Assembly (NCBI GenBank): GCA_028707495.1 | Contig: JAQWAS010000001.1 | Location: forward strand, 48,382 to 112,381 | Source: Patescibacteria group bacterium | GTDB taxonomy: Bacteria; Patescibacteriota; Patescibacteriia; UBA2591; JAQWAS01 | Direction: 5' to 3' | DNA length: 64,000 nucleotides | Shown here: in pieces, positions 4,601 to 52,075 of the stretch | Numbering within the stretch: position 1 is the stretch's first letter | Layout: every line of letters begins with the position of its first letter | The notes under the pieces: generated by a model | What the model was told of the DNA's origin: nothing | What the model saw: the letters and a program-made list of their open reading frames with translations, nothing else | The model's database searches: none | Position numbers and translations under genes: made by a program

Positions 4601-4858
4601 ATGGCAAAGAAATTATATGTTGGTGGAATCTCTTATTCAGCTACAGACGATAGCTTGAAAAATCATTTTTCTCAAGCTGGAACAGTTGAATCAGCCACCA
4701 TTATTATTGACAAAATGTCAGGCCGTTCAAAAGGTTTTGGTTTTGTCGAAATGTCAACCGAAGAAGAAGCTCAGAAAGCAATTGAAATGTTTAATGGTCA
4801 GGACATGGATGGACGTACCATTAAAGTCAATGAAGCTCGTCCACGCGAAGAACGCTAG
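4601..4858 (+). CDS. RNA-binding protein, RRM domain
   Basis: RNP2 KLYVGGIS and RNP1 KGFGFVEM motifs; 85 aa. Confidence 0.85.
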   Translation: MAKKLYVGGISYSATDDSLKNHFSQAGTVESATIIIDKMSGRSKGFGFVEMSTEEEAQKAIEMFNGQDMDGRTIKVNEARPREER

Positions 4859-4890
4859 ATTTTAAAGCATTTATAAAATAATGTTTTTAC

Positions 4891-4924
4891 AAAAGACGAT
4901 TCATAGAATCGTCTTTTGGTTTTA
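4891..4924 (+). terminator. rho-independent terminator (aagacgattc-ata-gaatcgtctt + TTTTGGTTTT)
   Basis: Perfect 10-bp stem followed by T-rich tract, immediately after RRM gene. Confidence 0.75.
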
Positions 4925-6619: not shown

Positions 6620-7678
6620 ATGAAAAAAGTTAAACTTTTACCCTTTATTTTTTCAACGGTTATTGGAATTTTTTTATTTGTTTTTATTTTAATTAAAATT
6701 GGCGCTGGCAACATTATTGACACGTTGACTTTATTAAAGCCTATCCCTGCCTTATCAGCGGGTATCGTTTTTTTTATTATGGTGTGTTTGCAGAGTTTAC
6801 GTTGGAAAATAATTCTAAAAAATATGGGTTACCTTGTTAGTTTTGGAAAAATTTTTATGGCAAGAACATCTGGTTTTTCGGTTTCATATTTAACTCCCAT
6901 GAGTTTTTTTGGCGGTGAACCTTGGCGAGCTTATTTTTTAAAGCAAGAAGAGGGGATAGCTATTCATCAAAGTTTAAGCTCAATTTTTATTGAAAAAATT
7001 ATCGATTTATTAATGGGAGCTTTGTTATTTTTAATTTCTTTTTTTTATTTAATTACTCGACCCATTTCAGCCCAATTATTAATTATTAGTATTTTAATTT
7101 TAGCTGGCATCGTAGCTGTTGTTTTCTGGTTTTTTAAAAGTTTAAAAAATAGAAAAAGATTTATTAGTAAATTTACCAAATTAATTGGCTTGCACAAAAT
7201 TAAATATATTCAGGAGCGGAGTGATCGTTTACAACGCATCGAAGAAAATTTAAGTAATTTTTTTTGGCACCAAAGGAAAAATTTAATTGTCGTTTTTTTA
7301 ATTATGACTTTAGAAATAGTTTTATCTTTGATTTTATTTAAAATAATAATTTTAGCTCTCGGTTATGATTTAAATGTGATGCAATTAATTTTTTTACGTG
7401 CCATGACTATGGCGGCGACTTTAGTGCCAATTCCGGCAGCCTTAGGTATTTCTGAGGGGGGTAATATTTTGGCTTTTATCATTTTTGGAGTTAGCGCTTC
7501 GGTCGGTATGGCCTTTAGTTTATTAACTCGTTGTTTTTTTGTTATCGAAGTTATCATTGGTTTAATTTTCTTATCGCATTTTGGAATTAAATTAATTAAA
7601 AATTTATTTATTAAAATGTTTAATAATGGCAATGGCAACGGTAATGGTAACAATGGTAATGAAGACAGTAAGATTTAG
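6620..7678 (+). CDS. flippase-like membrane protein (UPF0104 / lysylphosphatidylglycerol synthase TM-region family), C-terminal NG repeat
   Basis: About 8 TM helices; typical MKK..LLPF start; C-terminus NGNGNGNGNNGN. Confidence 0.5.
   Translation: MKKVKLLPFIFSTVIGIFLFVFILIKIGAGNIIDTLTLLKPIPALSAGIVFFIMVCLQSLRWKIILKNMGYLVSFGKIFMARTSGFSVSYLTPMSFFGGEPWRAYFLKQEEGIAIHQSLSSIFIEKIIDLLMGALLFLISFFYLITRPISAQLLIISILILAGIVAVVFWFFKSLKNRKRFISKFTKLIGLHKIKYIQERSDRLQRIEENLSNFFWHQRKNLIVVFLIMTLEIVLSLILFKIIILALGYDLNVMQLIFLRAMTMAATLVPIPAALGISEGGNILAFIIFGVSASVGMAFSLLTRCFFVIEVIIGLIFLSHFGIKLIKNLFIKMFNNGNGNGNGNNGNEDSKI
7624..7660 (+). repeat. hexanucleotide microsatellite (aatggc/aatggt x6) encoding (NG)n tail
   Basis: Tandem aatggc aatggc aacggt aatggt aacaat ggtaat. 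Confidence 0.7.
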
Positions 7679-7702
7679 TTATTAAAAATTTTTTTAAAAA
7701 TA

Positions 7703-7728
7703 AAATCCGTAGATAGCGGATTTTTTTA
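7703..7728 (+). terminator. rho-independent terminator (aaatccg..cggattt + T7)
   Basis: 7-bp stem plus TTTTTTT after flippase-like gene. Confidence 0.55.
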
Positions 7729-7756
7729 TATAGTTATTTTTGTAAAAAGCTTTAAA

Positions 7757-8170
7757 GTTAAGAATATAATTGAAGCGTTGATTTACGGGATTGCCACCTG
7801 CCTGCGGCGGGCAGGCGTCGTCGTCTGCCGAGTCGGCAGACTCCTCCTCGCAATGACACATACCTAAAGTGTCATACTGAACTTGTTTCAGCATCTGTTA
7901 GCGCCTAAAATGTTGATTCTTAAAAAATGTTTTTTTTCGACTACAGATCCTGAAATAAATTCAGGATGACAGAATAAATGTCATGCTGAACTCTAGTCCG
8001 CCAAATCGGAGGATGTTTCAGCATCTGTTAACAAAAGAAGTGTTATGCTGAACTTGTTTCAGCATCTGTAGTTGAGTTAAAATTTGTTATTTTAAATAGA
8101 CGTCATGAGTGTTTACAGATCCTGAAATAAATTCAGGATGACAATACAAAAATTCAGGATGACATCGATA
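7757..8170. repeat. hairpin-dense GC-rich repeat mosaic, left copy (core about 7794-7971)
   Basis: About 180-bp core about 97% identical to 17993-18169; contains nested perfect hairpins (gcctgc..gcaggc; ctgccga..tcggcag; atgacac..gtgtcat; atgctgaa..ttcagcat x3; atcctgaa..ttcaggat x2). Confidence 0.8.
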
Positions 8171-8176
8171 ATCAAC

Positions 8177-8210
8177 AAAAAGTGCAATATGTGTGTACAC
8201 ATTACCAATA
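8177..8210. mobile_element. solo IS-end remnant (matches terminus of IS at 51118-51153)
   Basis: caaaaagtgcaatatgtgtgtacacattacc is identical over 31 bp to the transposase-proximal end of the IS481-family element. Confidence 0.45.
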
Positions 8211-8214
8211 TACC

Positions 8215-8243
8215 TTGACAAGAAATTTAATTTATGCTAGTAT
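8215..8243 (+). promoter_or_regulatory. sigma70-type promoter TTGACA-N17-TAGTAT (promoter module copy 1)
   Basis: Consensus -35, 17-bp spacer, -10; same module at 38409, 51167, 52130. Confidence 0.55.
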
Positions 8244-8306
8244 ATAGATAGATAATAATTATGGTTCTTTAATATCATATTTAATTGCGAAAAGAACAGA
8301 CTGTTA

Positions 8307-9062
8307 ATGCGGTTGGTTGGTTATCTGACTGATTGCCTTAGTGGTCTACTCTTTTCGCAATTATTTACAAAACAAATTTTCCTAAAGGAGGAAAAAGTGG
8401 AAGCTAAAAAAATCCTAAGAATCATGATTAAAGTAGCTTTGATCGCTATGATTGCCTTTACTTTGTTTTGGGGTGCTTGGTATTTGATTACCGGTAGCAT
8501 ACCTTCGGTCGAAACTATCAAGATGACGGAAGGCTGGAGTATCATTCTGCCCTTTGCCATTCCGCGCTGGACTGACATTCCCCTAGCCGGCATATTTGCT
8601 TGTTTATTAGTTCTGTTGTTTACTAATAAGGGATGGCACAAGCGTTACGCCGACGAAATCGAATGGGAATATGATTATGTGGTCACTCTGTACGTAGGGT
8701 TTCTTTACGGGATAATTGTCGGGCTGGGTGCTGGGCTAATTTGCAGTGCGTGTGATTTAGGTGCCGGGCTAGGCGTCGGATTACTTTGCGGACTAGCTGT
8801 CGGCCTATTTTGGGGACCAGTTGGCGGGCTAGGCTTCAGCCTAGCTTGTATGCTAGGCATCGGTCTAAATATAGGGTTGTTTTACATGCCAGCCTTGGTT
8901 CCAGTTGCCGGGTTGGGTTTTGGGATAGGTGTCGGGCTAAAATATCTTTTTACTAGAGAATTCTGCAAGAAAATCGGTCATTTTATTGAAGGAGTCTACA
9001 AAAAGATCAGTCGTTTTATTGTAGAATCTAGTAAAAAGATTGGCTCTTGGATAACAAAATAA
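8307..9062 (+). CDS. glycine-zipper membrane protein (GxxxG repeats); alternative start GTG 8397 with strong SD
   Basis: Repeats GAGLGVGLLCGLAVGLFWGPVGGLGFSL; aaaggagg SD 8 nt before in-frame GTG at 8397. Confidence 0.5.
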   Translation: MRLVGYLTDCLSGLLFSQLFTKQIFLKEEKVEAKKILRIMIKVALIAMIAFTLFWGAWYLITGSIPSVETIKMTEGWSIILPFAIPRWTDIPLAGIFACLLVLLFTNKGWHKRYADEIEWEYDYVVTLYVGFLYGIIVGLGAGLICSACDLGAGLGVGLLCGLAVGLFWGPVGGLGFSLACMLGIGLNIGLFYMPALVPVAGLGFGIGVGLKYLFTREFCKKIGHFIEGVYKKISRFIVESSKKIGSWITK

Positions 9063-9072
9063 CAACGATTTT

Positions 9073-9104
9073 AAGGCCGAGGGAAATCCTCGGCCCTTGT
9101 TTAT
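9073..9104. terminator. bidirectional terminator (ggccgagg-gaaat-cctcggcc)
   Basis: Perfect 8-bp GC stem between convergent genes. Confidence 0.6.
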
Positions 9105-9122
9105 TCAAGTTTTAAAAATATT

Positions 9123-9734
9123 TTAAGCAATCTTTTCCTTAACACGCATTAAAGAAGTTAAGGCGCTTCTTTCCTGTTCATCAAGTTTATTAGTAATATA
9201 TTTAATAGTTGATTGCATCTGAGGAATAAAAACATATTCTAAGGCATTGACCCGGCGGCGGGTTTTTTCAATTTCTTGAGCCAAAAGACGAGCCGAATGT
9301 TCAATTTCAGCTAAATTAACAATATTATCTAAGCTGGCAGAAAAAGACTCTAAAGCAAAATCAATTTCACTACTAGTCGAAGCTAAAGAATAGCAGACAT
9401 GGTCACCTTCTGATTTAAATTTAAATTGAGGGATATTAACGCTCATAACATTTTTAGTTTCAACTTTCAAAGTTATTTTTTTAGATGGCATAATTAAAGC
9501 TTCTTCGGTGACTTCTGGGCGCATGTCAGCTGAGGCAAAAATAAAAGACTTAAAGGCTTGACCTAATTTTTGTTCAACTTCTTGACGGAGAGTTTGAGCC
9601 TGGCGAATAATCGTCATAAATTCTTTCATTAAGCCATCTCTTTTTTCTTTAAGCAGTTTGTGTCCTTGTTGAGCTACTTTAACTCTTTTTTTAAGTCGTA
9701 TAAGTTCTATGCGTGTTGGATTAATTTTTGCCAT
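9123..9734 (-). CDS. atpD: V/A-type ATP synthase subunit D
   Basis: MAKINPTRIELIRLKKR..QQGHKLLK, typical V-type D N-terminus; operon position. Confidence 0.85.
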   Translation of the reverse strand: MAKINPTRIELIRLKKRVKVAQQGHKLLKEKRDGLMKEFMTIIRQAQTLRQEVEQKLGQAFKSFIFASADMRPEVTEEALIMPSKKITLKVETKNVMSVNIPQFKFKSEGDHVCYSLASTSSEIDFALESFSASLDNIVNLAEIEHSARLLAQEIEKTRRRVNALEYVFIPQMQSTIKYITNKLDEQERSALTSLMRVKEKIA

Positions 9735-9767
9735 ACAAAATTAATTTTTTAAATTAATGTGATAGAT

Positions 9768-11150
9768 TTATTTTTTAGGTAGATATTTTTCAATATATTC
9801 TTCTTTAATTCTTTTTAATTCAGAGCGTGGAAGGATAGTTAATAATTCCCAGCCTAAGTTTAAAGTTGTTAAAATATCACGGTCTTCGTTTAAGCCTTGT
9901 TTAACAAATCTTTTTTCAAATTCATCAGCAAATTGACTAAATTTTTTATCGTTTTCTGATAAGGCAGCTTCACCTAAAATAACAGCTAGTTCGCGAGCCT
10001 CCTTACCACGAGCATAAGATGAAAAAAGTTGATTCATTAAGCCGGCGTGATCTTCTCGAGTTTTTCCCTCGCCAACACCTTTATCTTTTAAACGTGATAA
10101 AGATGGTAAGACGTTTACAGATGGATAAATACCCTTGCGATGCAAATCACGATCAATCATAATTTGACCTTCGGTAATATAACCAGTTAAATCCGGAATG
10201 GGATGGGTTTTATCATCTTCAGGCATGGTTAAAATAGGAATTTGAGTGATTGAACCAGGTTTATTTTTAATTCGACCAGCTCTTTCATACAGAGTTGAAA
10301 GATCAGTATACAAATAACCTGGATAACCTCTGCGGCCGGGAATTTCTTTACGTGCCGCTGAAATTTCTCTTAAAGCTTGGCAATAATTAGTCATGTCGGT
10401 TAAAATAACCAAAACATGCATACCTTTTTCATAAGCTAAATATTCTGCTGTGGTTAAAGCTAAACGAGGAAGAGTAATTCTTTCAACGACTGGGTCATCG
10501 GCTAAATTAATATATAAAACAGCTCGCTCGATTGCGCCGGTTTTTTTAAACTCATTAATAAAATATTCGGCTTCTTCAAATGTAATTCCCATGGCGCCGA
10601 AAATAACAGCAAAAGGCGAATCTTTTCCGTCTTTAGAAATAACTTTGGCTTGGCGAGCAATTTGAGCGGCGAGTTGATTGTGGGTTAAACCAGCACCTGA
10701 AAATATCGGTAATTTTTGGCCACGGACTAAAGTGTTTAAAGCATCAATAGTTGAAATACCAGTTTGAATAAAATCATTAGGATAATCTCTGGCAAAAGGA
10801 TTTAAGGGATCACCATTGACATCAAGTTTTGTTTCGGCAATAATAGCTGGACCCTTATCTTTGGGGCGACCAGAGCCGTCAAAGACTCGACCCAAAACAT
10901 CTAAAGATAATGGTAATTCCATGGTTTTACCTAAAAATTTAGCACTTGAACCTTCTAGGGCAATACCTCGAGTTCCTTCAAATAGTTGGACAATCGCCTT
11001 ATCTCCATTAACTTCTAAAACTTGACCGCGACGAATACTTCCATCGTTTAATTTAATTTCAACCAATTCATCATATTTAACTCCCTCAACTTCATCAACG
11101 ATTAAAAGCGGTCCAGAAACTTCTTTAATTGTTTTATATTCTTTCAACAT
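9768..11150 (-). CDS. atpB: V/A-type ATP synthase subunit B (non-catalytic)
   Basis: 460 aa alpha/beta-fold NTPase paralog lacking an intact P-loop; adjacent to A. Confidence 0.9.
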
Positions 11151-17835: not shown

Positions 17836-18260
17836 AAGAGTCATTGCGAGGAATCCCGATTTTTGGGATGACGAAGCAATTTCGTAAAAGAAAACCTTAA
17901 AATTAAGAATACAATTGAAGCGTTGATTTACGGGATTGCTTCGTCGTCGGATTACCTCCTTCTCACAATGACACTTTAGGAACGGGATTGCCACCTGTCT
18001 GCGGCGGGCAGGTGTCGTCGTCTGCCGAGTCGGCAGACTCCTTCTCGCAATGACACATACCTAAAGTGTCATGCTGAACTTGTTTCAGCATCTGTTAGCG
18101 CTTAAAATGTTGATTCTTAAAAAATGTTTTTTTTTCGACTACAGATCCTGAAATAAATTCAGGATGACAATACAAAAATTCAGGATGACAATGGGGTTCT
18201 GGATAACAATACAAAGCATTCCATTGCACGGAACTCTGCTCGCAATGACGCTTGTTTTTT
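17836..18260. repeat. hairpin-dense GC-rich repeat mosaic, right copy (core about 17993-18169, plus a degenerate partial copy 17905-17992)
   Basis: Same modules and order as 7757-8170, direct orientation. Confidence 0.8.
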
Positions 18261-20923: not shown

Positions 20924-23900
20924 ATGCATCAATTCAAAATTCAACAGGAGGGAAAAAATAGCAAAAGAGCAATTATTTTTATAGTTGTTTTTACTTTTTT
21001 AAACGTATTTTTAATTTCATCTATTTCGTCTGTTTTGGCTCAGACCCCCATCCAGAGCAAGAATTTGATAAATGGCTTAAGTTTCTCGGGTGATAATTTA
21101 AAACAGATTGCATCTAAATCAATTGAAATAAATAAAGTTCCGGGCATTTTAAAATATACCCCCAAATTGACAAATTTAAATCAAAATTTAAACGAAAGTC
21201 ATTTATTAATTAACAATATTAAAATAGATAAGCAGTCTTGGTCTAGTTTTAAATTAGATGATTATCGTAATTTTAAAGAATATAAAATACAGGGACGAGT
21301 TAATTTAGGAGATTTAGATTATAAAGTTTTTGATATTGCAAATCTTTCCACGGTTGAATCTGTGGTTTTTTCAGGAAAAGTCACGACATTTCCAATTTTA
21401 AAACCTGATGGTCAAAATTATGGTCATGGTTTCGCAAGGGTAATTTTAATTGGTCAAGATGAAAAGGGCAAAATTCGTGAATATGCAGTTTTAGATACTT
21501 CTCATTTTTATGCTGACAAATTTGATAATTCTAAAAATGAATATGATTTTAATATGATTGGGGATGAAGCCTTAGCTCTTCCAGGTTCAATTAAACCCTT
21601 GCATCTCGTTGTTGAGGGTAGTAATGTTGAAGTTAATTTTGAAAAAATTTATTATTCAACAACTAAAACTGGTCTTGATTTTAAGCAAGTTTTAAACGAA
21701 CAAAATGATGCTAAAATTAGAATGATTAACGAAAAAAATGAGAGGTTTGGTTATCACTGGGAAGCGGGGAATACTGGCATTTCACAAGAATCTTATGAGA
21801 TAAAAAAGGCTTATTTAGGAGACACAATGACTGGTCAATATGACTCGGTTAAAGTTTATAAGCCCATGCCAAACGCTGAGATAATTTATTATTCTGGAGG
21901 CGTTTTTTCTTTTGTGCCCATGGGAGAAATGACATATTCTTTACCCTCAAGACATTTAGAAGATTCGGGGTCTGCAATGCTTCCATCTTCTCCAACGGCT
22001 TTGCCGGCTGATTATGATAAAATAGAATTCTCATGGAGAGATGCGCATAACCAAGATTGGACAACATCAGTTAAAACCCAGGTTGGCGCAACGTGTTGGG
22101 CGTACGCAGCCACAGCAGCCCATGAACTAATGGTTAATACTTATTTTGCAAGGCATTTAGATAAAGATTTAAGCGAACAGCAGTTTATATCAAGAGGCGG
22201 AACAACCGACCCCATTTGTGGAGGGCAAGTTAATCCCGCAGAACAGGTTGCTTATACCCGCGGTCAGTTTGATGAGACATGTTTCCCAGCAACGGGTTTA
22301 TCTACAACACCTTGCAGTCCTTGTGCGGATTGGGATACGAGGGCATGGAAATCAACAACATATGAAAATTCAATAAATTACAGAAACCCTGTTGACTTAA
22401 TGAAGGATTTAAGAAGCAACGCAGGTATGGTTTTAGGATTAAACGAATGGAATCACGCAGTTAATCTTGTTGGAGCTGAAATATGGAGAGACGATTCGTC
22501 GCTTATTATGGAATATAAAAATTCCTGGGGCCCAACATGGGGAATTGACGGTTATGGTTATTTGTACGGTCCGATAGATATTGCAGTTTTTAATAAATGG
22601 GGTCACCCTGAAACTGCGGCTACAGGAGCGCCGACAACACAGCTTTGCACTGATGCAGACAGCGATGGTTATTGTTGGTGGGGATTAGGATCTAAACCTT
22701 CAACTGGTTGTCCAACTAGCTGTGCAGGAAACAGTGTTGCTGATTGCGACGATTCAGATGCAAATAAACAAGGCCTAGTTGATGGGTATATTTGTGCTGA
22801 CAATTCGGACGTGATTTCGTCATGTACAACAATTAACTCCCCTGGAACATATTATTTAAGTGGGGACATGTCAGCAAGCGGAAATTGCATTAACATTAAC
22901 AGTGATAATGTAGCTTTAACGTGCAGTGGCGCAACAATCACAGGAACTGGAACAGGAACCGGCATAAAGATTGATTCACAATCTGATGTTAGAATTTATG
23001 ATTGTAATTTAAATAATTTTAATATTGGTGTTGAAATTTTAAACTCAGACGGAGTAATGTTAGCTGATTCAAATGTAAGCAATTCAAATACAGGATTTAA
23101 AATAAACGGAAGTGAAAACGTGGTTGAAAAATATGGAATTTTAACTTCAAACGGAAAAGGTGTTGAATTAATTAATTCAAATAATAATTACATTTATCAA
23201 AACACATTCCAATCAAATACATACGGAATTTATTTAACTAATTCATTAAATAATGAATTTCAGGGAAATGTGATTAAAACATCAAGCAATACAGGATTTT
23301 ATGCAGATAGTGCAAGTGATAATAATGAGGTCGGAAATTTATATGCGTGTAGCTCGTCTGTTAAGGATATTAATGATCAAGGAACAAATGATTATTCTAT
23401 AACTGCGTGCGGTTCAGCCACGGGGACAACTTGCGATTATACATGTTCTGTTGGATGCACCAATTTATATTGGCCGGCAACATATCCAGGGGGAGATGCA
23501 TATTATCCAGAGAGAATTAGAGAGACATCAGAAGAAGGCAAGCATTATTTTATAATTGATGCTTATGGCGGGACAATTAATTTATGCGAAGATGGTTATT
23601 ATCCGTTGGATTATCCAACACAGCAAATCTTACTCGGAACTTACAATGTTGTAGTTGATTTTAAAAATTCAGAATTTGTCGGCAAAACAAGGGATTATGG
23701 CGATTATATTTTTGATCCGGGCGTATATCCGCCTTTTGGAAATTATCCATTAGTCCGCGAGGATTATGATGCTTGGTTTTCAAAAGGAACAATTAAGAAT
23801 ATGAAAATATCAAATGTTTCTACCGGCATAGCGCTGATGGGAACTTCGGGCTCAACAATAACAACCTGGGATAATATTCACTTTGAAAATGTTAAAGTTG

Positions 23901-26900
23901 GTGCTTATGCAAGAAATTTAAAAATAATTAATTCTAAATTTATAAATTGCGATGAATATGGGATTTACCTTTATGATGTGGAAGGAAACCAGTTGATTGT
24001 TGAAAATTCAGAATTTAAAAATATCGGAATTAATGGGATTTACACCAATGCAGTGTCAACAGTACAGGTAGGGGGAACTGGAACAACCGACATTGAAAAA
24101 GGAAATTATTTTGAAAATTGCAATAAAATTTATCTTGGAAGAGGTGATACAACTGGAACTGATAATATTCGGCATAATGTTTTAGTTGATACGGGGCTAG
24201 AAACTGAGCTTGAAAATGTTAATTTTATTAATAATAAAATTTTTAATTCTCCTTATTATGGCTTAAATGTTTCTACCTATTCGGCAGGGACTGTGGCGGT
24301 TCAAAATAATACAGTTTGCGGAAGTATCGGAACAAGAGACATATATGATTCGTCTACCAGAGGAACCTATTTAAACAATGCCTGTGGCTCATCAACACCA
24401 AGTGGATTATGTGTTTTTACTGGCAATACTTATTATCGGGATGTAGATGGTGATGGATATGGAAATCCGGACACAACACAAACAAGAGCATGTCCAACTG
24501 TGGGCTATATTTGGAGAGCTGGTGATTGTGATGATACTGATGTAGATGTTAATCCAGAGGGAGAAGAAGTTTGTGATAATAAAGATAATAACTGTGATGG
24601 GACAACAGACAACATACTAGAAGATTGTGGTTCTGGTGTTTGTATTGGAACTAAATTATGCACTGCCGGGATTTGGGGTGTTTGTTCATCTTCGGGAAAT
24701 GATGCAGGAGTTTGTGCAAAATGTAGTGATACTGGAATTGCAGTTTATGACGGAACGCAAAATATAGATTGTGATGATGGAGCATACTGTAACGGTACAG
24801 AAGTTTGTAGTGCAATTTATACATGTACCGCAGGCACACCGATAAATTGTTCAGTTAACAATTTAGACCCAATTGGAATGTGCATTTGGAATCCAGACGG
24901 AAACCCATTAACCTGGGATTATTTTGCTGGTTTTACATCTGCATGCAATGAAACAACCGATTCATGCACTTCAGGAACAGTTGAATTAACACACACTTGC
25001 GACGTAACTACTTGTGGCGCAGAATGTGACGCAACCCACGAATGTGAAGACAGTTCATGCGAAGAAACATACACCGATTATTGTGATGGTTTAAAATTAA
25101 CAGAATACAATTCAAATCTTATTTTAGATTCAATTTTAATTTCTGATTCATGCGAAAATATGTGTGGAGTAGATTGTGGATGTACCGATTGCGACACGGA
25201 TTGTTCTGCGCCAAGTACGAACACATATTGTGTGAAAGACGTGTGTGGCGCAGTTTGCGATTCGCACGATGATTGTGCGCCAACAGAATGTACACACTTA
25301 AGCGGTTGTGTGGGTAATGATTATTATGAATATTCAAACGTGTCCAATGATTGTACGGGTGGTTGTGCTTGCACAAGCAATGACTGTGGAATACCAATAA
25401 TCTATGAGTTTGATTCAAGATGTGTTGAATGTATGATTGATGACGACTGCAATTCTTATGATGCAGACTATTGTACAGGAAATTCAATCATGCATGATGA
25501 GGGTAGATGTTTAGGGTATGTATGCGAAACTGAAACAACAGAAACGCAAAATTGTAATTTATTAAACAATAATTATTGTTTAGGAACAGACATTATGCAA
25601 GATATTTACACATGTTCATTGGCAGTCTGTGTAATTGATGAAACAAATTTAATTGAAAATTGTAATGATGAATTATATTGTAATGGAGCAGAAACATGCG
25701 CAGATGCAATTTGTACCGCAGGCACACCGATAAATTGTTCAGTTAACAATTTAGACCCAATTGGAATGTGCATTTGGAATCCAGACGGAAACCCATTAAC
25801 CTGGGATTATTTTGCTGGTTTTACATCTGCATGCAATGAAACAACCGATTCATGCACTTCAGGAACAGTTGAATTAACACACACTTGCGACGTAACTACT
25901 TGTGGCGCAGAATGTGACGCAACCCACGAATGTGAAGACAGTTCATGCGAAGAAACATACACCGATTATTGTGATGGTTTAAAATTAACAGAATACAATT
26001 CAAATCTTATTTTAGATTCAATTTTAATTTCTGATTCATGCGAAAATATGTGTGGAGTAGATTGTGGATGTACCGATTGCGACACGGATTGTTCTGCGCC
26101 AAGTACGAACACATATTGTGTGAAAGACGTGTGTGGCGCAGTTTGCGATTCGCACGATGATTGTGCGCCAACAGAATGTACACACTTAAGCGGTTGTGTG
26201 GGTAATGATTATTATGAATATTCAAACGTGTCCAATGATTGTACGGGTGGTTGTGCTTGCACAAGCAATGACTGTGGAATACCAATAATCTATGAGTTTG
26301 ATTCAAGATGTGTTGAATGTGTTGATTTAGATGATGAAGAAACTTTCTTGGGTAGGGTTGTCAGATCGGGCGATTCTTATCTTATAAATGATGATATTAT
26401 GTTATGTTCTGGAACATACAATTTTGACGATACGGCATTAATAGCTAATAGCAATAATTTGATTATTGATTGTAATGATGCGGAATTGATTGGACAAGGG
26501 ATAAGGTCTGGATATTATATTGATAATTATTATGGAATTGAAATTAACAATAAAAATAATGTTATTATTAAAAATTGTCATATTGAAAATTTTATAAAGG
26601 GATCAGTAATTAATAATGTTCAGGGTGTTCAGTTTATTGATAATGAATTTATTAACAATACAGATGCGAGTATCTATGGTGAGATGAGTATTAACGATGT
26701 TTTAATTCAAGGAAATTATATTATTAACGATCCCTTGGCTTCATCAACTTATGGGATTCAATTACAAGATGTTTCTAATTCATTAATTATTGAAAACAAC
26801 GTGAGTCAAAATAGTCTTGGTATTTATCTTGGACCTGATTCTGAAAATAATAATATAACAAACAATTATTTAGAAAATAATTTTAATTCAGGAATTTCAT

Positions 26901-28372
26901 TAACTTTAGCAAATAATAATTTAATTAATGGAAATAATTTAGAAAGCAATAGTAAAGGAATCACTACGAGTTCTTGTTCTAATATTGATATTTACAATAA
27001 CACAAATTTATTTAGTGAAGATGTCGGAATTGAGATTTATCAATCGGATCTTTGTGAGGTAATTAATAATACAATTATTGACTCAGGATTTGGAATTAAG
27101 GTGGAAATGGGAAATGATAATTCTATATTAAATAATAATATAGACGGTTCTATGCAAGGTATCAAAATATCAAGAACGACAAATAATAATATTGAAGATA
27201 ATATAATTGATATTAATGCGGGTTATTTAGAAAACGCTTATAGTATTGATGTTAGTGTGGGAACTGATGAATTATACAATAATTGTAATAATATTATAAA
27301 AAGAAATACGGACTCAGCAGGAAAGCAGATTATTTATTTTAAAAATGATGATGATATTGAATCAATTTTACCCATGATAATAGAACCAATTACAGAACTC
27401 ATATTGTGTAATACAGATGATGTGGTTGTTGATGGTATAGAAATTGATGGAAGTAATATCGATGGTAATACTAATGGTGTGATTATTGAAAGCTCAGATA
27501 ATATCATTTTTAGAAATTCAAACATTATTAATAGTTATATTGGAATTAATATTAGAGAGTCTAAATTTAATTATTTTAATTTAAATCAAATTAATAACAA
27601 TAATTTCGGAATAATATTAACAATGTCAAGTGAAAATATAATTGAAAATAATAATATTTGTGACAATGAATTTGTTGATTTATTGATTGGAGAGGCGAGT
27701 AGCTATAACGATGGTGATAATATTTGCAATGACGTTATTTATGGATCTGGATTAGAATTATATAATACTATTGAATGTTCAACTAGTTGTTCAGAGGCAA
27801 GAGTTAAATTTTTACCACCTTTAGAAAAAATAAAAGATATGTTTGGTATTATTGAAAATAAAATTAAAAAAGTTATAGGTATTAAAGTAAAGCTGGGAAA
27901 TGGCAATGAGACTTCCAATACAAAAATAATAGAAGACAATCAAATCGTAGATGAAAATAATGGAAACATAATTAAACCAAAAACAGAAGATAATTTTGTC
28001 ACTATCAAAGAGGGGGTTAAAATAGAAGGGACAGAAATAATTTTTGAACATCAAGATAACAATGTTGTTTTAGATTTAGAAATTAAAGAGACGACAGAAC
28101 AAGAAAAATTATCAGACGGAGTTGTTGTGATTGAAGAAGAAAATAAAGAAATTAAAGAATCTGAAATTGGTTCGATAATTAAAAATAAAAATGTTGAAAT
28201 AATGCCGATAGAAGTTGTTAAAAAAGAAACAGAAATGGTGGTTGGTGAATTTATGTCAAGTTTTAAAAAAGATATTATTGAAATTAAACCAGAAATAACA
28301 TCGACCGACATTTTAATCACCACTAAAGAGGGCGTTAAAAAAATAGAGGATTTGGAAGTCGATAAGAATTAA
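20924..28372 (+). CDS. giant secreted multidomain protein (2482 aa): signal peptide, papain-like C1 cysteine protease, two parallel beta-helix repeat blocks, Cys-rich metal-binding-like modules, duplicated Cys-rich modules, E/K/I-rich C-terminal region
   Basis: C1 catalytic signatures QVGATCWAYA (Gln/Cys), NHAVNLVG (His), YKNSWGPTWGIDGYGY (Asn/Trp); beta-helix repeats such as NNNYIYQNTFQSNTYGIYLTNS; DVDGDGYGNPD..CDDTDVDVNPEGEEVCDNKDNNCDG. Confidence 0.85.
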   Translation: MHQFKIQQEGKNSKRAIIFIVVFTFLNVFLISSISSVLAQTPIQSKNLINGLSFSGDNLKQIASKSIEINKVPGILKYTPKLTNLNQNLNESHLLINNIKIDKQSWSSFKLDDYRNFKEYKIQGRVNLGDLDYKVFDIANLSTVESVVFSGKVTTFPILKPDGQNYGHGFARVILIGQDEKGKIREYAVLDTSHFYADKFDNSKNEYDFNMIGDEALALPGSIKPLHLVVEGSNVEVNFEKIYYSTTKTGLDFKQVLNEQNDAKIRMINEKNERFGYHWEAGNTGISQESYEIKKAYLGDTMTGQYDSVKVYKPMPNAEIIYYSGGVFSFVPMGEMTYSLPSRHLEDSGSAMLPSSPTALPADYDKIEFSWRDAHNQDWTTSVKTQVGATCWAYAATAAHELMVNTYFARHLDKDLSEQQFISRGGTTDPICGGQVNPAEQVAYTRGQFDETCFPATGLSTTPCSPCADWDTRAWKSTTYENSINYRNPVDLMKDLRSNAGMVLGLNEWNHAVNLVGAEIWRDDSSLIMEYKNSWGPTWGIDGYGYLYGPIDIAVFNKWGHPETAATGAPTTQLCTDADSDGYCWWGLGSKPSTGCPTSCAGNSVADCDDSDANKQGLVDGYICADNSDVISSCTTINSPGTYYLSGDMSASGNCININSDNVALTCSGATITGTGTGTGIKIDSQSDVRIYDCNLNNFNIGVEILNSDGVMLADSNVSNSNTGFKINGSENVVEKYGILTSNGKGVELINSNNNYIYQNTFQSNTYGIYLTNSLNNEFQGNVIKTSSNTGFYADSASDNNEVGNLYACSSSVKDINDQGTNDYSITACGSATGTTCDYTCSVGCTNLYWPATYPGGDAYYPERIRETSEEGKHYFIIDAYGGTINLCEDGYYPLDYPTQQILLGTYNVVVDFKNSEFVGKTRDYGDYIFDPGVYPPFGNYPLVREDYDAWFSKGTIKNMKISNVSTGIALMGTSGSTITTWDNIHFENVKVGAYARNLKIINSKFINCDEYGIYLYDVEGNQLIVENSEFKNIGINGIYTNAVSTVQVGGTGTTDIEKGNYFENCNKIYLGRGDTTGTDNIRHNVLVDTGLETELENVNFINNKIFNSPYYGLNVSTYSAGTVAVQNNTVCGSIGTRDIYDSSTRGTYLNNACGSSTPSGLCVFTGNTYYRDVDGDGYGNPDTTQTRACPTVGYIWRAGDCDDTDVDVNPEGEEVCDNKDNNCDGTTDNILEDCGSGVCIGTKLCTAGIWGVCSSSGNDAGVCAKCSDTGIAVYDGTQNIDCDDGAYCNGTEVCSAIYTCTAGTPINCSVNNLDPIGMCIWNPDGNPLTWDYFAGFTSACNETTDSCTSGTVELTHTCDVTTCGAECDATHECEDSSCEETYTDYCDGLKLTEYNSNLILDSILISDSCENMCGVDCGCTDCDTDCSAPSTNTYCVKDVCGAVCDSHDDCAPTECTHLSGCVGNDYYEYSNVSNDCTGGCACTSNDCGIPIIYEFDSRCVECMIDDDCNSYDADYCTGNSIMHDEGRCLGYVCETETTETQNCNLLNNNYCLGTDIMQDIYTCSLAVCVIDETNLIENCNDELYCNGAETCADAICTAGTPINCSVNNLDPIGMCIWNPDGNPLTWDYFAGFTSACNETTDSCTSGTVELTHTCDVTTCGAECDATHECEDSSCEETYTDYCDGLKLTEYNSNLILDSILISDSCENMCGVDCGCTDCDTDCSAPSTNTYCVKDVCGAVCDSHDDCAPTECTHLSGCVGNDYYEYSNVSNDCTGGCACTSNDCGIPIIYEFDSRCVECVDLDDEETFLGRVVRSGDSYLINDDIMLCSGTYNFDDTALIANSNNLIIDCNDAELIGQGIRSGYYIDNYYGIEINNKNNVIIKNCHIENFIKGSVINNVQGVQFIDNEFINNTDASIYGEMSINDVLIQGNYIINDPLASSTYGIQLQDVSNSLIIENNVSQNSLGIYLGPDSENNNITNNYLENNFNSGISLTLANNNLINGNNLESNSKGITTSSCSNIDIYNNTNLFSEDVGIEIYQSDLCEVINNTIIDSGFGIKVEMGNDNSILNNNIDGSMQGIKISRTTNNNIEDNIIDINAGYLENAYSIDVSVGTDELYNNCNNIIKRNTDSAGKQIIYFKNDDDIESILPMIIEPITELILCNTDDVVVDGIEIDGSNIDGNTNGVIIESSDNIIFRNSNIINSYIGINIRESKFNYFNLNQINNNNFGIILTMSSENIIENNNICDNEFVDLLIGEASSYNDGDNICNDVIYGSGLELYNTIECSTSCSEARVKFLPPLEKIKDMFGIIENKIKKVIGIKVKLGNGNETSNTKIIEDNQIVDENNGNIIKPKTEDNFVTIKEGVKIEGTEIIFEHQDNNVVLDLEIKETTEQEKLSDGVVVIEEENKEIKESEIGSIIKNKNVEIMPIEVVKKETEMVVGEFMSSFKKDIIEIKPEITSTDILITTKEGVKKIEDLEVDKN
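24824..25434 (+). repeat. perfect tandem duplication, copy 1 (611 bp, period 888 bp)
   Basis: Identical at every position I compared to 25712-26322; explains the two identical minus-strand phantom ORFs. Confidence 0.85.
25712..26322 (+). repeat. perfect tandem duplication, copy 2
   Basis: See copy 1. Confidence 0.85.
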
Positions 28373-38408: not shown

Positions 38409-38437
38409 TTGACAAGAAATTAAATATATGCTAGTAT
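38409..38437 (+). promoter_or_regulatory. promoter module copy 2: TTGACA-N17-TAGTAT
   Basis: Near-identical to 8215-8243. Confidence 0.55.
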
Positions 38438-50133: not shown

Positions 50134-50162
50134 TAAAAACCGCTACAATGGCGGTTTTTTAT
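50134..50162 (+). terminator. rho-independent terminator (aaaaccgc..gcggtttt + T6) abutting IS end
   Basis: 8-bp stem plus TTTTTT. Confidence 0.6.
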
Positions 50163-51153
50163 TGTTTTAGACACATACATTTTGCACCCTCAAACCAAGG
50201 GCTTGATTAGGAGTTAGACCGTTTAAGGCACAATGTTCTAAATCATTGTAATACATATTCCAAAGTTTAATCTTGTATTTTAATTCTTCAAAACTATTAA
50301 ATTTAACCTGGTTATAGAATTGTTCTTGATCGGTACGATGACTACGCTCTACGTGTCCATTTTGAGCAGGCTTACCAGGATCAATCAGATAATGTTGTAT
50401 GTTTAATCTTTGACATTCTAAATCAAGTATGTGTAGGCGTGGATTAAGTGGATGGATACTTTTAATATAGCCCGTATAACGATTAGTGAAGATCGAAGCA
50501 TTGTCAGTCTTGATAGCTAAGATTTTATGAGGGAAGTTTTGAATAACTTGATTAAAAAAATCTAGACTTAAATGATTGCCTTGGGCTTCATAGATTTTAA
50601 TATAGCGCCAACGTGTAGCACAGTCAATAGCTGTAAACTGGTAAAAACGCCTAGAACCTAGTAATTGAGGCACATATTTAACGTCTATCTCAACTAAGTC
50701 ACCTGGTTGTAGTTGTGCTTTAACATACTTGTATTTAACTTTACGCACACGATATTTACGTGTTAAACCCTCTGTTTTGATGATTTTACCAATAGTGCGA
50801 TGATGAAGATGAATCCCTTGTTTATTTAAGCGCCAGGCTAATTTTTGAGCGCACAGACCTGTTTCTTGTCTTAACTCAATAACTTGTTCTTTGATTCGAA
50901 TAGACGTCTCTTGGGGATGGCTTTTAGGGCGAGTTGACTTGTTGACTAGACCAGCTAAACCAGACTGTTTAAAGTTAGCTAACCAATACTTAAGAGTCCT
51001 TTCACAGAAGGGACAAACTTGAACCATATTTTTAATGGTAATTTTACCATCAAGGATTGGTTTAATCCAACGAAGTTTTTCTTCGATTGTTGATTTGGGC
51101 ATAGTTTTAGACATGCCCCTAGTTTAGCAAAAAGTGCAATATGTGTGTACACA
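50160..51153 (-). mobile_element. IS481-family insertion sequence (about 1 kb) with imperfect terminal inverted repeats
   Basis: TIR candidates tgttttagacacatacattttgcac (left) and reverse complement of gtgcaatatgtgtgtacaca (right); transposase stop codon lies inside the IR as usual for IS481. Confidence 0.6.
50167..51114 (-). CDS. DDE transposase, IS481 family (HTH + integrase core)
   Basis: N-terminal HTH; rve core with D..D..E (IDVKYV, KTDNASIF, HVERSHRT). Confidence 0.75.
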   Translation of the reverse strand: MSKTMPKSTIEEKLRWIKPILDGKITIKNMVQVCPFCERTLKYWLANFKQSGLAGLVNKSTRPKSHPQETSIRIKEQVIELRQETGLCAQKLAWRLNKQGIHLHHRTIGKIIKTEGLTRKYRVRKVKYKYVKAQLQPGDLVEIDVKYVPQLLGSRRFYQFTAIDCATRWRYIKIYEAQGNHLSLDFFNQVIQNFPHKILAIKTDNASIFTNRYTGYIKSIHPLNPRLHILDLECQRLNIQHYLIDPGKPAQNGHVERSHRTDQEQFYNQVKFNSFEELKYKIKLWNMYYNDLEHCALNGLTPNQALGLRVQNVCV

Positions 51154-51166
51154 TTACCTTATCCCC

Positions 51167-51195
51167 TTGACAAGAAAAATAATTTATGATAACAT
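51167..51195 (+). promoter_or_regulatory. promoter module copy 3: TTGACA-N17-TAACAT, directly outside IS end
   Basis: Same module as 8215, 38409, 52130. Confidence 0.45.
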
Positions 51196-51295: not shown

Positions 51296-52075
51296 ATGCT
51301 CGGAGAAGGTAAACTCAAACACACAGCAGTAGTTGTGCGTAGTTACAAAAACTCTCATGTTACGCAGCAAATTCGAAATCTGTTGAATATGGGTGTGGGA
51401 AAGATCTACGTGGTGGTTAAGAATACCGAGGATAAGGGGTCAACCAAGGGTTGGCTCAAAAAATATAAGAACGATCCTAGGTTGGAAGTCTTCGAGATGG
51501 AAGATGGATATACCTGGTGTAATGCGCTTAATGCGGCGATCTACAAGATTCAAATGGAAAATCTCTCTGAGAGATCCACTGTCGAGTTCGTGCTGAATCT
51601 GTCGGTAGAAACCAAGATCACCAAGAAACACCTGGTTACTATGTTGGACGTTTTGACTGACAGTCAACGCGTCGGCGTAGTAGGTAGTTCTTTTGTCGGT
51701 TACTGTCAGGGCAATCAGGTTAGTCTCGGGAGATCATACCGTCACCCCCGTAACACTGGGATGGTGATTAGATTTGAGGTGTTTAAAAAACTTCTCGGTC
51801 TATTCAACAACTTGTGTGATGACAAGGGCGGCATGGAGGATATCGAATTTATCCTTCGCATGTTAGTATACACCAACTATGAATACAGGATGCTCAATTT
51901 GGGTATCAAGCTCGTTGTAGGGGTGTATTACAATCAGGACACGAAGGAACAAAGAGAGCAATCTGCCATGGATCTGATTATTCAGATGTGGCGCAACACT
52001 TTTCCCAACAAAGACTCTGAGGGTCGTCTGCGCTTCGAAAATGCAATCGCAGAAATGGGACTCGAAGAAGCTTAA
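51296..52075 (+). CDS. GT-A-fold (GT2-like) glycosyltransferase-like protein, compositionally foreign (GC-rich); start at ATG 51296 with AGGAGG SD
   Basis: TAVVVRSYKN..KIYVVVKN GT-A N-terminus; GGMEDIEFILRM resembles GT2 EDxDxxxR; GC visibly higher than flanks. Confidence 0.45.
   Translation: MLGEGKLKHTAVVVRSYKNSHVTQQIRNLLNMGVGKIYVVVKNTEDKGSTKGWLKKYKNDPRLEVFEMEDGYTWCNALNAAIYKIQMENLSERSTVEFVLNLSVETKITKKHLVTMLDVLTDSQRVGVVGSSFVGYCQGNQVSLGRSYRHPRNTGMVIRFEVFKKLLGLFNNLCDDKGGMEDIEFILRMLVYTNYEYRMLNLGIKLVVGVYYNQDTKEQREQSAMDLIIQMWRNTFPNKDSEGRLRFENAIAEMGLEEA

What the first reader, a model, noticed from the sequence alone, without database searches (positions are those of the whole stretch)
8177..8250. 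Solo IS-end remnant fused to a reused promoter module upstream of the glycine-zipper gene
caaaaagtgcaatatgtgtgtacacattacc (8180-8210) is identical to the transposase-proximal terminus of the IS at 51118-51148. Both are followed 10-20 bp later by ccTTGACAagaaa..N..atagatag. So the same IS-end-plus-outward-promoter junction exists twice, once with an intact IS and once as a solo end. The palindrome tgtgtacaca inside the IS end could be a protein-binding site. This suggests IS-driven promoter delivery, or site-specific IS insertion next to this promoter module.
Basis: seen in the sequence. Interest (0 to 1): 0.5.

Follow-up and report, generated by a model that had tools for sequence, protein, structure and literature searches.

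The report
Insertion sequence that targets promoter −35 boxes
The 31-bp match is a leftover end of a small jumping gene, and this jumping-gene family, common in Patescibacteria, almost always lands exactly 8 bp upstream of the −35 box of a host promoter, in one orientation; I found no published description of this habit.

Summary
CAAAAAGTGCAATATGTGTGTACACATTACC occurs at 8176-8206 and 51128-51158, and nowhere else in the window.

The second copy is the transposase-proximal end of an intact 996-bp IS481-type insertion sequence (IS) at 50163-51158. It has imperfect 25-28-bp terminal inverted repeats (IRs) and a 4-bp target duplication, TTAT. The first copy is a solo end: no transposase, no other IR. 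Identity between the two copies stops exactly at the IS tip.

In both copies the tip is followed by 8 unrelated bases and then a TTGACA-N17-TAnnAT promoter with an extended −10. This is not a carried promoter module. Among 128 unique ends of this IS family from other Patescibacteria genomes and metagenomes, 81 have exact TTGACA at offset 8, and about 100 have it with at most one mismatch. The flanks are otherwise unrelated and the downstream genes are diverse. The target duplication lies between the IS tip and the −35 box.

So "promoter delivery" is rejected. "Site-specific insertion next to promoters" is supported, and it applies to the whole IS family.

How the hexamer is recognised is inferred, not shown. 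I favour direct DNA read-out over tethering to RNA polymerase. I found no published description. Why short solo ends are so common remains unexplained.

The parts
8176..8206 (+). Solo transposase-proximal inverted repeat of the IS. It comprises the complete 28-bp conserved IR (8179-8206) plus 3 more bases identical to the resident IS.
   Evidence: 31/31 identical to 51128-51158. Identity ends at the IS tip. No transposase or distal IR upstream. The conserved IR length of 28 bp comes from 100 intact copies.
8207..8214 (+). 8-bp non-conserved spacer between the IS tip and the −35 box. The first 4 bp correspond to the position of the target-site duplication.
   Evidence: aatatacc here versus ttatcccc at the intact copy. 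Positions 1-6 carry no information across 128 family flanks.
8215..8243 (+). Host sigma-70-type promoter of the 8397 gene: −35 TTGACA at 8215-8220, 17-bp spacer, TG at 8235-8236, −10 TAGTAT at 8238-8243.
   Evidence: Best promoter-like site in 7000-9500, 10 of 12 matches with TG. Same geometry as the family-wide flank profile.
8397..9062 (+). Downstream gene: 221-aa Gly-rich membrane protein with a GTG start after AAGGAGG. It is preceded by a leader of about 147 nt.
   Evidence: ORF list and sequence. No Pfam or NCBIfam match.
50163..51158 (-). Intact 996-bp IS481-type insertion sequence.
   Evidence: Boundaries from the IRs plus the flanking 4-bp direct repeat. Family copies are 992-1013 bp.
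50167..51114 (-). Transposase gene, 315 aa.
   Evidence: Pfam HTH_28, HTH_32, LZ_Tnp_IS481, rve, rve_3. NCBIfam IS481 model 208 bits across the full model length. An identical protein is present in an NCBI Patescibacteria MAG (metagenome-assembled genome).
50163..50187 (+). Transposase-distal IR: TGTTTTAGACACATACATTTTGCAC.
   Evidence: Matches the reverse complement of the proximal IR at 16/25 positions in register, with a 13/15 core. The same end is found in 37 other full copies.
51131..51158 (+). Transposase-proximal IR, 28 bp: AAAGTGCAATATGTGTGTACACATTACC.
50159..50162 (+). Left copy of the 4-bp target-site duplication, TTAT.
   Evidence: Identical to 51159-51162. A perfect 4-bp duplication is seen in 15 of 36 full family copies that have both flanks.
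51159..51162 (+). Right copy of the 4-bp target-site duplication, TTAT.
51167..51195 (+). Host promoter of the 51296 gene: −35 TTGACA at 51167-51172, 17-bp spacer, −10 TAACAT at 51190-51195, preceded by TG.
51296..52075 (+). Downstream gene, 259 aa, with no family match.
   Evidence: The exact protein is on record in sample SRR22315502. No Pfam or NCBIfam hit.

Best explanation
8176-8206 is the decayed remnant (a solo transposase-proximal inverted repeat) of a copy of the 996-bp IS481-type insertion sequence that is intact at 50163-51158.

Both copies lie with their tip exactly 8 bp upstream of a host −35 hexamer because this IS family integrates at a specific site and in a specific orientation. 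The 4-bp staggered cut falls at about −43 to −40 of a sigma-70 promoter. The transposase-proximal end faces the promoter, so the transposase gene is transcribed divergently from the host gene. The insertion sits between the upstream gene's terminator and the next promoter and leaves both intact, which makes it one of the few harmless sites in a very compact genome.

The promoters are host promoters and are not carried by the IS. Their mutual resemblance reflects this genome's promoter consensus.

Shown: the IS boundaries, the target duplication, the fixed distance and orientation, and the independence of the flanks.

Inferred: the transposition complex reads the TTGACA hexamer itself. I put direct DNA read-out at about 0.5 and tethering to sigma/RNA polymerase at about 0.3. 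Selection then removes most insertions next to non-promoter hexamers. Solo ends arise by later deletions, which cannot extend into the adjacent promoter.
For: Two exact copies of the 31-mer, with none expected by chance.

IS481-type transposase.

IRs in register, with a TTAT duplication exactly 1000 bp apart.

Genome scan: 14 loci from Patescibacteria MAGs (metagenome-assembled genomes). Most have 8 variable nt and then TTGACA after the conserved ...ATTACC IS tip.

Metagenome scan: of 128 unique ends, 81 have exact TTGACA at offset 8 and about 100 have it with at most 1 mismatch. The profile then shows TG and TAnnnT after a 17-bp spacer, while flank positions 1-6 carry no information.

Four copies in one MAG are identical inside the IS and unrelated beyond the ACC tip.

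A perfect 4-bp duplication flanks 15 of 36 full copies. There is no sequence signal on the distal side.

Distal ends abut an outward-facing promoter in only 3-4 of about 40 cases.

Copies found through their protein rather than their IR carry variant IRs, and still sit 8 bp from TTGACA or TTTACA at 5 of 7 distinct sites.

Downstream genes are diverse. An ORF with a ribosome-binding site follows at a median of 60 nt.

L039 shows a new full copy, with a GCAT duplication, inserted between an older solo end and the same promoter.

For direct DNA read-out: insertions with a target duplication that interrupt long ORFs still have TTGCCA or TTGATA at offset 8 and no −10 (L064, L056).
Against: No empty (pre-insertion) site was recovered, because all contigs from the source population break at the IS.

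About 20% of ends have no hexamer at offset 8.

Half of the full copies lack a perfect duplication. That may reflect chimeric assembly of a multi-copy element, but this is unproven.

Most of the sample was gathered with an exact IR pattern, so IR conservation and remnant lengths are biased.

The transposase has no extra domain that would explain hexamer recognition.

The pile-up of solo remnants at 25-39 bp, with the complete 28-bp IR usually kept, is not obviously what neutral erosion predicts.
Confidence: 0.88

Rival explanations
1. Targeting works through a protein tether. The transposition complex docks on sigma-70 region 4 or RNA polymerase holoenzyme bound at promoters, and integrates at a fixed distance from it. 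This would be a bacterial analogue of Ty3 at Pol III promoters.
For: 91 of 100 flanks with a hexamer at offset 8 also have a −10 at 16-18 bp, often with the extended TG. Orientation specificity is about 10:1. The IS tip falls in the region just upstream of the −35 hexamer, which is where the alpha C-terminal domain of RNA polymerase contacts DNA (from general knowledge, not tested here).
Against: The −35 hexamer is more sharply conserved than the −10. Gene-interrupting insertions without a −10 still have TTGCCA, TTGATA, TTGACA or TTGACG at offset 8 (L064, L056, L088, L051). Survivorship alone could explain why most retained sites are real promoters.
Confidence: 0.3
2. Promoter delivery. The IS end carries an outward-facing promoter, or at least its −35 box, and brings it to the genes it lands next to.
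For: A promoter follows the IS end in both window copies and in most relatives. IS ends that carry outward −35 boxes are well known in other families (from general knowledge).
Against: The 4-bp target duplication lies between the IS tip and the −35 box. The 8-bp gap and the 17-bp spacer are unrelated among copies, including copies with identical interiors in one genome. Identity between the two window copies drops from 31/31 to 2/8 at the tip.
Confidence: 0.02
3. The 28-31-bp motif is a host regulatory site (an operator or activator site at about −54) that belongs to promoters. The IS either inserts beside it or has merely acquired it.
For: 20 of 133 instances are solo, and most keep the full 28-bp unit. 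L002 has two such motifs at two divergent promoters. The motif contains a short palindrome.
Against: The motif pairs in register with the IR at the other end of the IS (18/25 in the common variant). The target duplication encloses it. Remnants form a graded series: 25-74 bp, 83, about 200, about 313, about 420 and about 760 bp. Of 276 promoter-like sites in the fetched loci, the unoccupied ones show only background similarity to the motif. Downstream genes share no function. The palindrome's centre shifts between variants.
Confidence: 0.04
4. Insertion is random, and only insertions that happen to fall just upstream of promoters survive in these compact genomes.
For: Coding density is high. 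Insertions between a terminator and the next promoter should be the least harmful: 12 of 37 left flanks end in a T-run.
Against: Selection cannot produce a single-base register: offset 8 in about 100 cases, against offsets 7 or 9 in 3. Nor can it produce a 10:1 orientation bias. Insertions inside ORFs still show the hexamer at offset 8.
Confidence: 0.03
5. The two window loci resemble each other over 76 nt because a segment holding the IR plus the promoter was copied, or gene-converted, from one locus to the other. They would then not be two independent insertions.
For: 76 nt at 86% identity. ATATAGATAG after the −10 is shared only by these two promoters in the window.
Against: The 8 bp between the IR and the −35 box differ at 6 of 8 positions, while the IR is 31/31 identical. 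Up to the −10, each promoter is as similar to an unoccupied promoter (38409 or 52130) as the two are to each other. The family-wide rule predicts this arrangement without any copying.
Confidence: 0.05

Closest known systems
IS481 family insertion sequences (for example IS481 of Bordetella pertussis)
   Same: A single ORF of about 315 aa with N-terminal HTH domains and an rve (DDE) catalytic core. Element length about 1 kb, short terminal IRs, short target duplication, and the stop codon lies inside the distal IR.
   Different: From my own knowledge, IS481 itself prefers a short NCTAGN target. Here the determinant is an asymmetric TTGACA hexamer 8 bp from the joint, and insertion is orientation-specific. 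The host range is Patescibacteria.
IS1202-group elements that abut XerCD recombination sites
   Same: A DDE-type IS repeatedly found at a fixed position next to a conserved host or plasmid DNA site (bioRxiv 10.1101/2022.12.17.520857, abstract as listed).
   Different: A different transposase family and a different target. The target here is a core promoter element present hundreds of times per genome.
Ty3 retrotransposon integration at Pol III transcription start sites
   Same: A mobile element that uses the transcription-initiation region as a precise, harmless landing site (PMC5911963, listed; mechanism from my own knowledge).
   Different: Eukaryotic, uses an RNA intermediate, and is tethered by TFIIIB. 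A tether is not shown for the bacterial IS, and I favour direct DNA read-out.
Other site-selective bacterial elements: IS1111/IS110 (REP and attC sites, guided by seeker/bridge RNA), group IIC introns (after terminators), Tn7 (attTn7)
   Same: The strategy of choosing conserved intergenic features so as to avoid damaging the host (one search lists PMC11187229 and PMC3001079).
   Different: No DEDD transposase, no long non-coding guide region, no intron RNA and no accessory targeting proteins. The element is only 996 bp and carries one gene.
IS elements that activate genes through outward or hybrid promoters (IS1, IS2, IS5, ISAba1 and others)
   Same: An IS end lies immediately upstream of a gene's promoter region (review PMC9330008, listed).
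   Different: In those cases the IS supplies the −35 box or the whole promoter. Here both hexamers are pre-existing host DNA outside the target duplication.

Membership tests
IS481 family insertion sequence | Transposase with N-terminal HTH domains plus an rve/DDE integrase core, and best match to IS481-type models | tested here: met
   Pfam HTH_28, HTH_32, LZ_Tnp_IS481, rve and rve_3 are all above their cut-offs. NCBIfam NF033577 is by far the best hit, covering model positions 2-283 of 284. A 72%-identical homologue is named 'IS481 family transposase' by NCBI.
IS481 family insertion sequence | Score above NCBIfam's curated equivalog cut-off | tested here: inconclusive
   208.4 bits against a cut-off of 224. 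This is a divergent member or a sister clade. The threshold is a naming convention, not a biological criterion.
IS481 family insertion sequence | Element of about 1 kb with a single ORF, bounded by terminal inverted repeats | tested here: met
   996 bp, IRs of 25-28 bp, 16/25 matches in the window copy and 18/25 in common variants.
IS481 family insertion sequence | Short direct target-site duplication | tested here: met
   TTAT in the window. A perfect 4-bp duplication in 15 of 36 full copies, against roughly 1% expected by chance per copy.
IS481 family insertion sequence | Transposition chemistry (DDE catalysis, circular intermediate) | not testable with these tools
   The only hints are a distal tip-TTTT-proximal IR junction on a 1,033-bp contig (L157) and IR-4 bp-IR junctions in L127, L039 and L151. 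These could also be tandem copies or assembly effects.
Solo IS end (decay remnant) | Identity to one IS terminus that stops at the IS tip, with no transposase and no second IR | tested here: met
   31/31 identity ending at the ACC tip. No transposase ORF and no distal IR within 1.2 kb. The upstream DNA belongs to another repeat family.
MITE (non-autonomous element with two IRs) | Two inverted ends flanking a short interior, with a target duplication | tested here: not met
   The window solo has no second end and no duplication around it. A true internally deleted derivative does exist elsewhere (L006/L046, about 357 bp).
IS with outward or hybrid promoter (promoter delivery) | The −35 box or the whole promoter lies inside the mobile element | tested here: not met
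   Both hexamers lie outside the tip and outside the 4-bp duplication. Spacers are unrelated between copies.
Target-site-specific transposable element (functional class, not a homology family) | Reproducible position and orientation relative to a conserved target motif at independent insertions | tested here: met
   Exact TTGACA at offset 8 in 81 of 128 ends, and with at most 1 mismatch in about 100. Orientation bias about 10:1. The same holds for copies found through their protein rather than their IR.
Target-site-specific transposable element (functional class, not a homology family) | An unoccupied target site shown to exist before insertion | tested here: inconclusive
   No empty orthologous site was recovered. 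Indirect support comes from the target duplications, from reconstruction of an intact 1,152-nt ORF at L064, and from re-insertion beside an older solo end in L039.

The most novel reading that the evidence does not exclude
The element is a bacterial counterpart of Ty3. Its transposition complex docks on sigma-70/RNA polymerase, or copies sigma region 4's reading of the −35 hexamer, in order to integrate at −44. The 28-bp solo ends it leaves behind persist because they act as transposase-responsive operators, coupling host promoters to IS activity. Even without the operator part, a minimal one-gene DDE element with a programmable-looking 'promoter-seeking' specificity would be a new targeting principle for bacterial IS. 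It would also be a candidate promoter-trap tool.
Probability: 0.2. Interest if true: 0.85.

Novelty: new variant of a known kind. Interest (0 to 1): 0.7.

Why it matters
If confirmed experimentally, this would be a one-gene bacterial DDE insertion sequence that picks the core promoter itself as its landing site: single-base register with the −35 hexamer, in a fixed orientation.

That is of interest for four reasons:
- How can a plain HTH-rve transposase read an asymmetric 6-bp target 8 bp from the joint?
- How do mobile elements persist in the extremely compact, gene-dense genomes of Patescibacteria? The slot between a terminator and the next promoter may be the only safe place.
- Every IS end or solo end would mark a real promoter in organisms where promoters are otherwise unmapped.
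- It could serve as a natural promoter-seeking integration tool.

For the window itself, the finding is explained: one intact copy and one decayed copy of such an element. The "reused promoter module" is ordinary host promoter consensus.

Tried and rejected
Looked for empty sites or strain variants using the exact neighbouring proteins. Several starts were not on record. The contigs that were found all end at the IS or inside the glycine-rich gene (L015, L019, L140).

Searched Rfam over the intergenic region and over the whole window. Nothing credible.

Looked for a sigma-region-4-like or additional DNA-binding domain in the transposase N-terminus. Only the usual HTH_28, HTH_32 and related transposase HTH families were found.

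Looked for distal-IR remnants upstream of the solo ends, and for a target duplication around them. None found (and inspection by eye).

Looked by eye for a junction promoter (−35 in one end, −10 in the other) and for a transposase promoter that uses the host −35 box on the opposite strand. The spacings do not fit. The best candidate for the transposase promoter is an extended −10 (TGnTAnnnT) about 30-38 bp inside the proximal tip. This is inference only.

Tested whether the IS is registered to the −35 box or to the −10 box by using variation in spacer length. Uninformative, because 68 of 81 spacers are 17 bp.

Looked for partly decayed solo ends at other promoters in the fetched loci. None had 4-11 mismatches.

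Checked whether the downstream genes form one family or regulon. They do not. tRNA genes are rarely the target.

Ran six literature searches. No description of this behaviour was found. The library does not cover ISfinder or most subscription journals.

Full report
1. THE OBSERVATION

The 31-mer CAAAAAGTGCAATATGTGTGTACACATTACC is present exactly twice in the window, at 8176-8206 and 51128-51158, both on the + strand. There are no further copies even with three mismatches allowed, and none are expected by chance.

Gap-free similarity continues for 76 nt at 86% (family D7), but it is uneven:
- 31/31 identical in the first block
- 2/8 in the next 8 bp (aatatacc versus ttatcccc)
- 32/37 in the promoter that follows

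TTGACAAGAAA begins 8 bp after the 31-mer in both places, at 8215 and 51167.

2. WHAT THE TWO COPIES ARE

The copy at 51128-51158 lies just upstream of a 315-aa ORF on the minus strand (50167-51114).
- Pfam: HTH_28, HTH_32, LZ_Tnp_IS481, rve and rve_3 domains.
- NCBIfam: the best model by far is the IS481-family transposase, 208 bits over the whole model. This is slightly under the curated cut-off of 224.

The other end of the element reads TGTTTTAGACACATACATTTTGCAC (50163-50187). In register, it matches the reverse complement of ...GTGCAATATGTGTGTACACATTACC at 16 of 25 positions, with a 13/15 core. The four bases outside each end are both TTAT (50159-62 and 51159-62).

The IS is therefore 50163-51158: 996 bp with a 4-bp target duplication. 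The identity between the two window copies ends exactly at the IS tip.

Upstream of 8176 there is no transposase, no IS interior and no distal IR within 1.2 kb. The adjacent DNA (7746-8166) belongs to a different repeat, also present at 17891-18192. So 8176-8206 is a genuine solo end, derived from the same IS lineage as the resident copy. It shares the minority TACACA variant of the IR and three further interior bases with that copy.

A note on naming: this end is the transposase-proximal IR, which is the conventional "IRL". It appears on the right only because of the window's orientation.

3. THE PROMOTERS ARE HOST PROMOTERS

8215-8243 is TTGACA-17-TAGTAT with an upstream TG. It is the best promoter-like site in the region. 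51167-51195 is TTGACA-17-TAACAT with TG.

TTGACAAGAAA also heads the promoters at 38409 and 52130. Neither has an IS end, and both sit directly after terminator hairpins. Up to the −10, each of the two IS-adjacent promoters is as similar to one of these unoccupied promoters as they are to each other (family D3). Only the ATATAGATAG after the −10 is private to the pair.

4. THE FAMILY-WIDE PATTERN

A scan of species-representative genomes with 22 nt of the IR gave 14 loci, nearly all in Patescibacteria MAGs (metagenome-assembled genomes). Together with the window, these give 133 unique ends.

Of the 128 ends with at least 45 nt of outside flank:
- 81 have exact TTGACA starting at the ninth base after the ...ATTACC IS tip.
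- About 100 have it with at most one mismatch.
- Offsets of 7 or 9 occur three times.

The flank profile shows no information at positions 1-6. Position 7 weakly prefers T and position 8 prefers A or C. Then come TTGACA (T 118, T 118, G 111, A 111, C 100, A 95 of 128), TG at positions 29-30 and TAnnnT at 32-37. This is a canonical extended −10 sigma-70 promoter with a 17-bp spacer.

Further points:
- 91 of the 100 hexamer-bearing flanks have a recognisable −10.
- An ORF preceded by a ribosome-binding site follows at a median of 60 nt.
- The downstream genes are unrelated to each other: SLT, SecDF, OMP decarboxylase, hydrolases and others.
- Four copies in one MAG (L004, L007, L010, L011) are identical inside the IS and unrelated from the first base beyond ACC. 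Their −35/−10 spacers also differ.
- Full copies are 992-1013 bp. A perfect 4-bp duplication flanks 15 of the 36 copies with both sides present, against roughly 1% expected by chance per copy.
- The left flanks show no sequence signal, apart from frequent terminator T-runs.
- Only 3-4 of about 40 distal ends face an outward promoter at offset 7-8 (L045, L033, L006/L046). Orientation is therefore biased about 10:1.

To avoid the bias of searching with the IR itself, I also fetched copies through three homologous transposases, 67-68% identical to the window's. Their proximal IRs differ from my search pattern (GGTAATGTATACACAC... and GGTAATGTGTATACTC...). Even so, 5 of 7 distinct sites again show TTGACA, TTTACA or TTGATT at offset 8 with a −10, two of them with a perfect duplication.

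In the 767 kb of fetched DNA there are 276 promoter-like sites. Eighty carry the IR at offset 8, and the remainder show only background similarity to it. In the window, 2 of 14 such sites are occupied.

5. WHAT THIS RULES IN AND OUT

Ruled out:
- Promoter delivery. Both hexamers lie outside the tip and outside the duplication, and the spacers are unrelated between copies.
- A native host operator. The motif is one arm of an IR pair enclosed by the duplication. Remnants form a graded series from 25 bp to about 760 bp. Unoccupied promoters lack the motif.
- Pure survivorship of random insertions. Selection cannot give a single-base register or the orientation bias.

Ruled in: targeted integration at about −44/−40 of sigma-70 promoters.

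Two loci show the process directly. In L039 a full copy with a GCAT duplication sits between an older, degenerate solo end and the same promoter. L127 and L151 show the same solo-4 bp-distal-tip arrangement.

6. MECHANISM (INFERRED)

The transposase has only the usual two HTH domains plus the catalytic core. Even at lenient thresholds there is no extra or sigma-like domain.

Arguments for direct reading of the hexamer:
- The register is exact.
- The −35 box is more sharply conserved than the −10.
- Some insertions are clearly not at promoters yet keep the hexamer. L064 has a perfect TAAG duplication, and removing the IS restores a 1,152-nt open frame. Its flank reads taagtatcTTGCCA with no −10. 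L056, L088, L051, L110 and L111 are similar.

A tether to sigma or RNA polymerase remains possible, and I put it at about 0.3. About 20% of ends have no hexamer, so specificity is strong but not absolute.

A plausible selective rationale is that the slot between a terminator and the next −35 box is one of the few neutral positions in these compact genomes. The divergent arrangement also keeps host transcription out of the transposase gene. Both points are inference.

7. THE SOLO ENDS

Of the 133 ends:
- 42 are full copies.
- 53 carry a transposase gene cut off by a contig end.
- 13 cannot be classified.
- 5 are partial.
- 20 are solo.

Positions 24-28 of the IR were not part of my search pattern, yet they are about 100% conserved in intact copies. 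The functional IR is therefore 28 bp: AAAGTGCAATATGTGTGTRCACATTACC.

Solo remnant lengths are approximately 25, 27, 28, 30, 31, 31, 32, 32, 33, 34, 34, 35, 38, 38, 39, 45, 54, 56, 57 and 74 bp. None retains the distal IR or a target duplication.

My reading is progressive deletion that cannot proceed into the adjacent promoter, combined with a detection floor of 23 bp. The clustering at or just above 28 bp is not fully explained. Protection by bound transposase, or a retained function, cannot be excluded. L013 (solo) and L042 (IS present) share an orthologous flank at 68% identity. This could mean an ancient insertion or repeated hits on the same promoter.

8. THE PALINDROME

TGTGTACACA is part of an alternating pyrimidine-purine tract. 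In relatives it reads TGTGCACA, TGTATACA, GTGTGCACAC or GTATAC, and the centre of symmetry moves by one or two bases. This tract is the least conserved part of the IR, so a fixed dyad binding site is not supported.

9. NOVELTY

Six full-text searches found no description of an IS481-type element, or of any bacterial IS, registered to the −35 hexamer, and nothing on IS481 in the candidate phyla radiation. The library lacks ISfinder and most subscription journals, so prior description cannot be excluded.

The element is a member of a known kind (an IS481-like DDE insertion sequence) with an apparently new target specificity. The family is large: 6,789 homologues at E ≤ 1e-20, many of them on contigs of about 1 kb.

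10. VERDICT

The solo end and the site-specific insertion are right. The promoter module, promoter delivery and the palindrome as a binding site are not.
- The local feature is an ordinary decayed IS end. The rule it reveals is unusual, well supported statistically, and testable by experiment.

Noticed in passing
window 7746-8166 and 17891-18192: A composite repeat of about 400 nt, built from hairpin modules (...ctcgcaatgac..., gtcatgctgaac/gtttcagcat, atcctgaaataaattcaggat). It lies in two intergenic regions upstream of + strand genes. The first copy has an internal duplication (7867-7978 versus 8038-8150). It folds far better than shuffled sequence (z = −10) and has no Rfam match.
   Followed up: partly
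window 8282-8363: A near-perfect 82-nt hairpin in the roughly 147-nt leader, between the promoter and the GTG start at 8397. Whole leader: −49 kcal/mol, z = −6.5. No Rfam family matches. It could be a regulatory leader or another small palindromic element.
   Followed up: partly
window 24824-25123 and 25712-26011: A 300-nt direct repeat, 100% identical, spaced 888 nt apart. It lies inside a 2,482-aa Cys-rich ORF (20924-28372), so it is a very recent in-frame internal duplication of a segment of about 296 aa.
   Followed up: partly
window 8215, 38409, 51167, 52130: Four promoters share the extended motif cTTGACAAGAAA followed by an A/T-rich spacer (TAATTTA in three of them). The two without an IS end sit immediately after terminator hairpins, which shows the typical empty target architecture.
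   Followed up: partly
L157 (whole 1,033-bp contig); L127 about 4847-4900; L039 about 230-260; L151 about 2152-2190: Junctions in which the distal IS tip is separated by exactly 4 bp from a proximal IR. In L157 this could be a circle or tandem junction, or an assembly wrap-around. In L127, L039 and L151 a solo or degenerate proximal IR abuts a full copy, which suggests repeated use of the same target.
   Followed up: partly
L006 2689-3045 (same element in L046): An internally deleted derivative of about 357 bp that keeps both IRs and only transposase codons 1-96 (MITE-like). Outward promoter-like sites lie at offset 7 on both sides.
   Followed up: no
L002 6200-6645: Two solo proximal IRs in inverted orientation, 446 bp apart. 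Each is exactly 8 bp from an outward-facing TTGACA promoter, so both promoters of a divergent pair carry a remnant.
   Followed up: no
L117 and L076, flank just outside the proximal IR: Two independent contigs share the flank TTGGTAa..cgcacatttcggacaaa at offset 8. It looks like the end of another repeated element, so this may be an IS inserted into another mobile element.
   Followed up: no
window 9123-11150 (minus strand) and L015: V/A-type ATPase operon (subunits I, c, E, C, F, A, B, D) immediately downstream of the glycine-rich gene, in a Patescibacteria genome.
   Followed up: no
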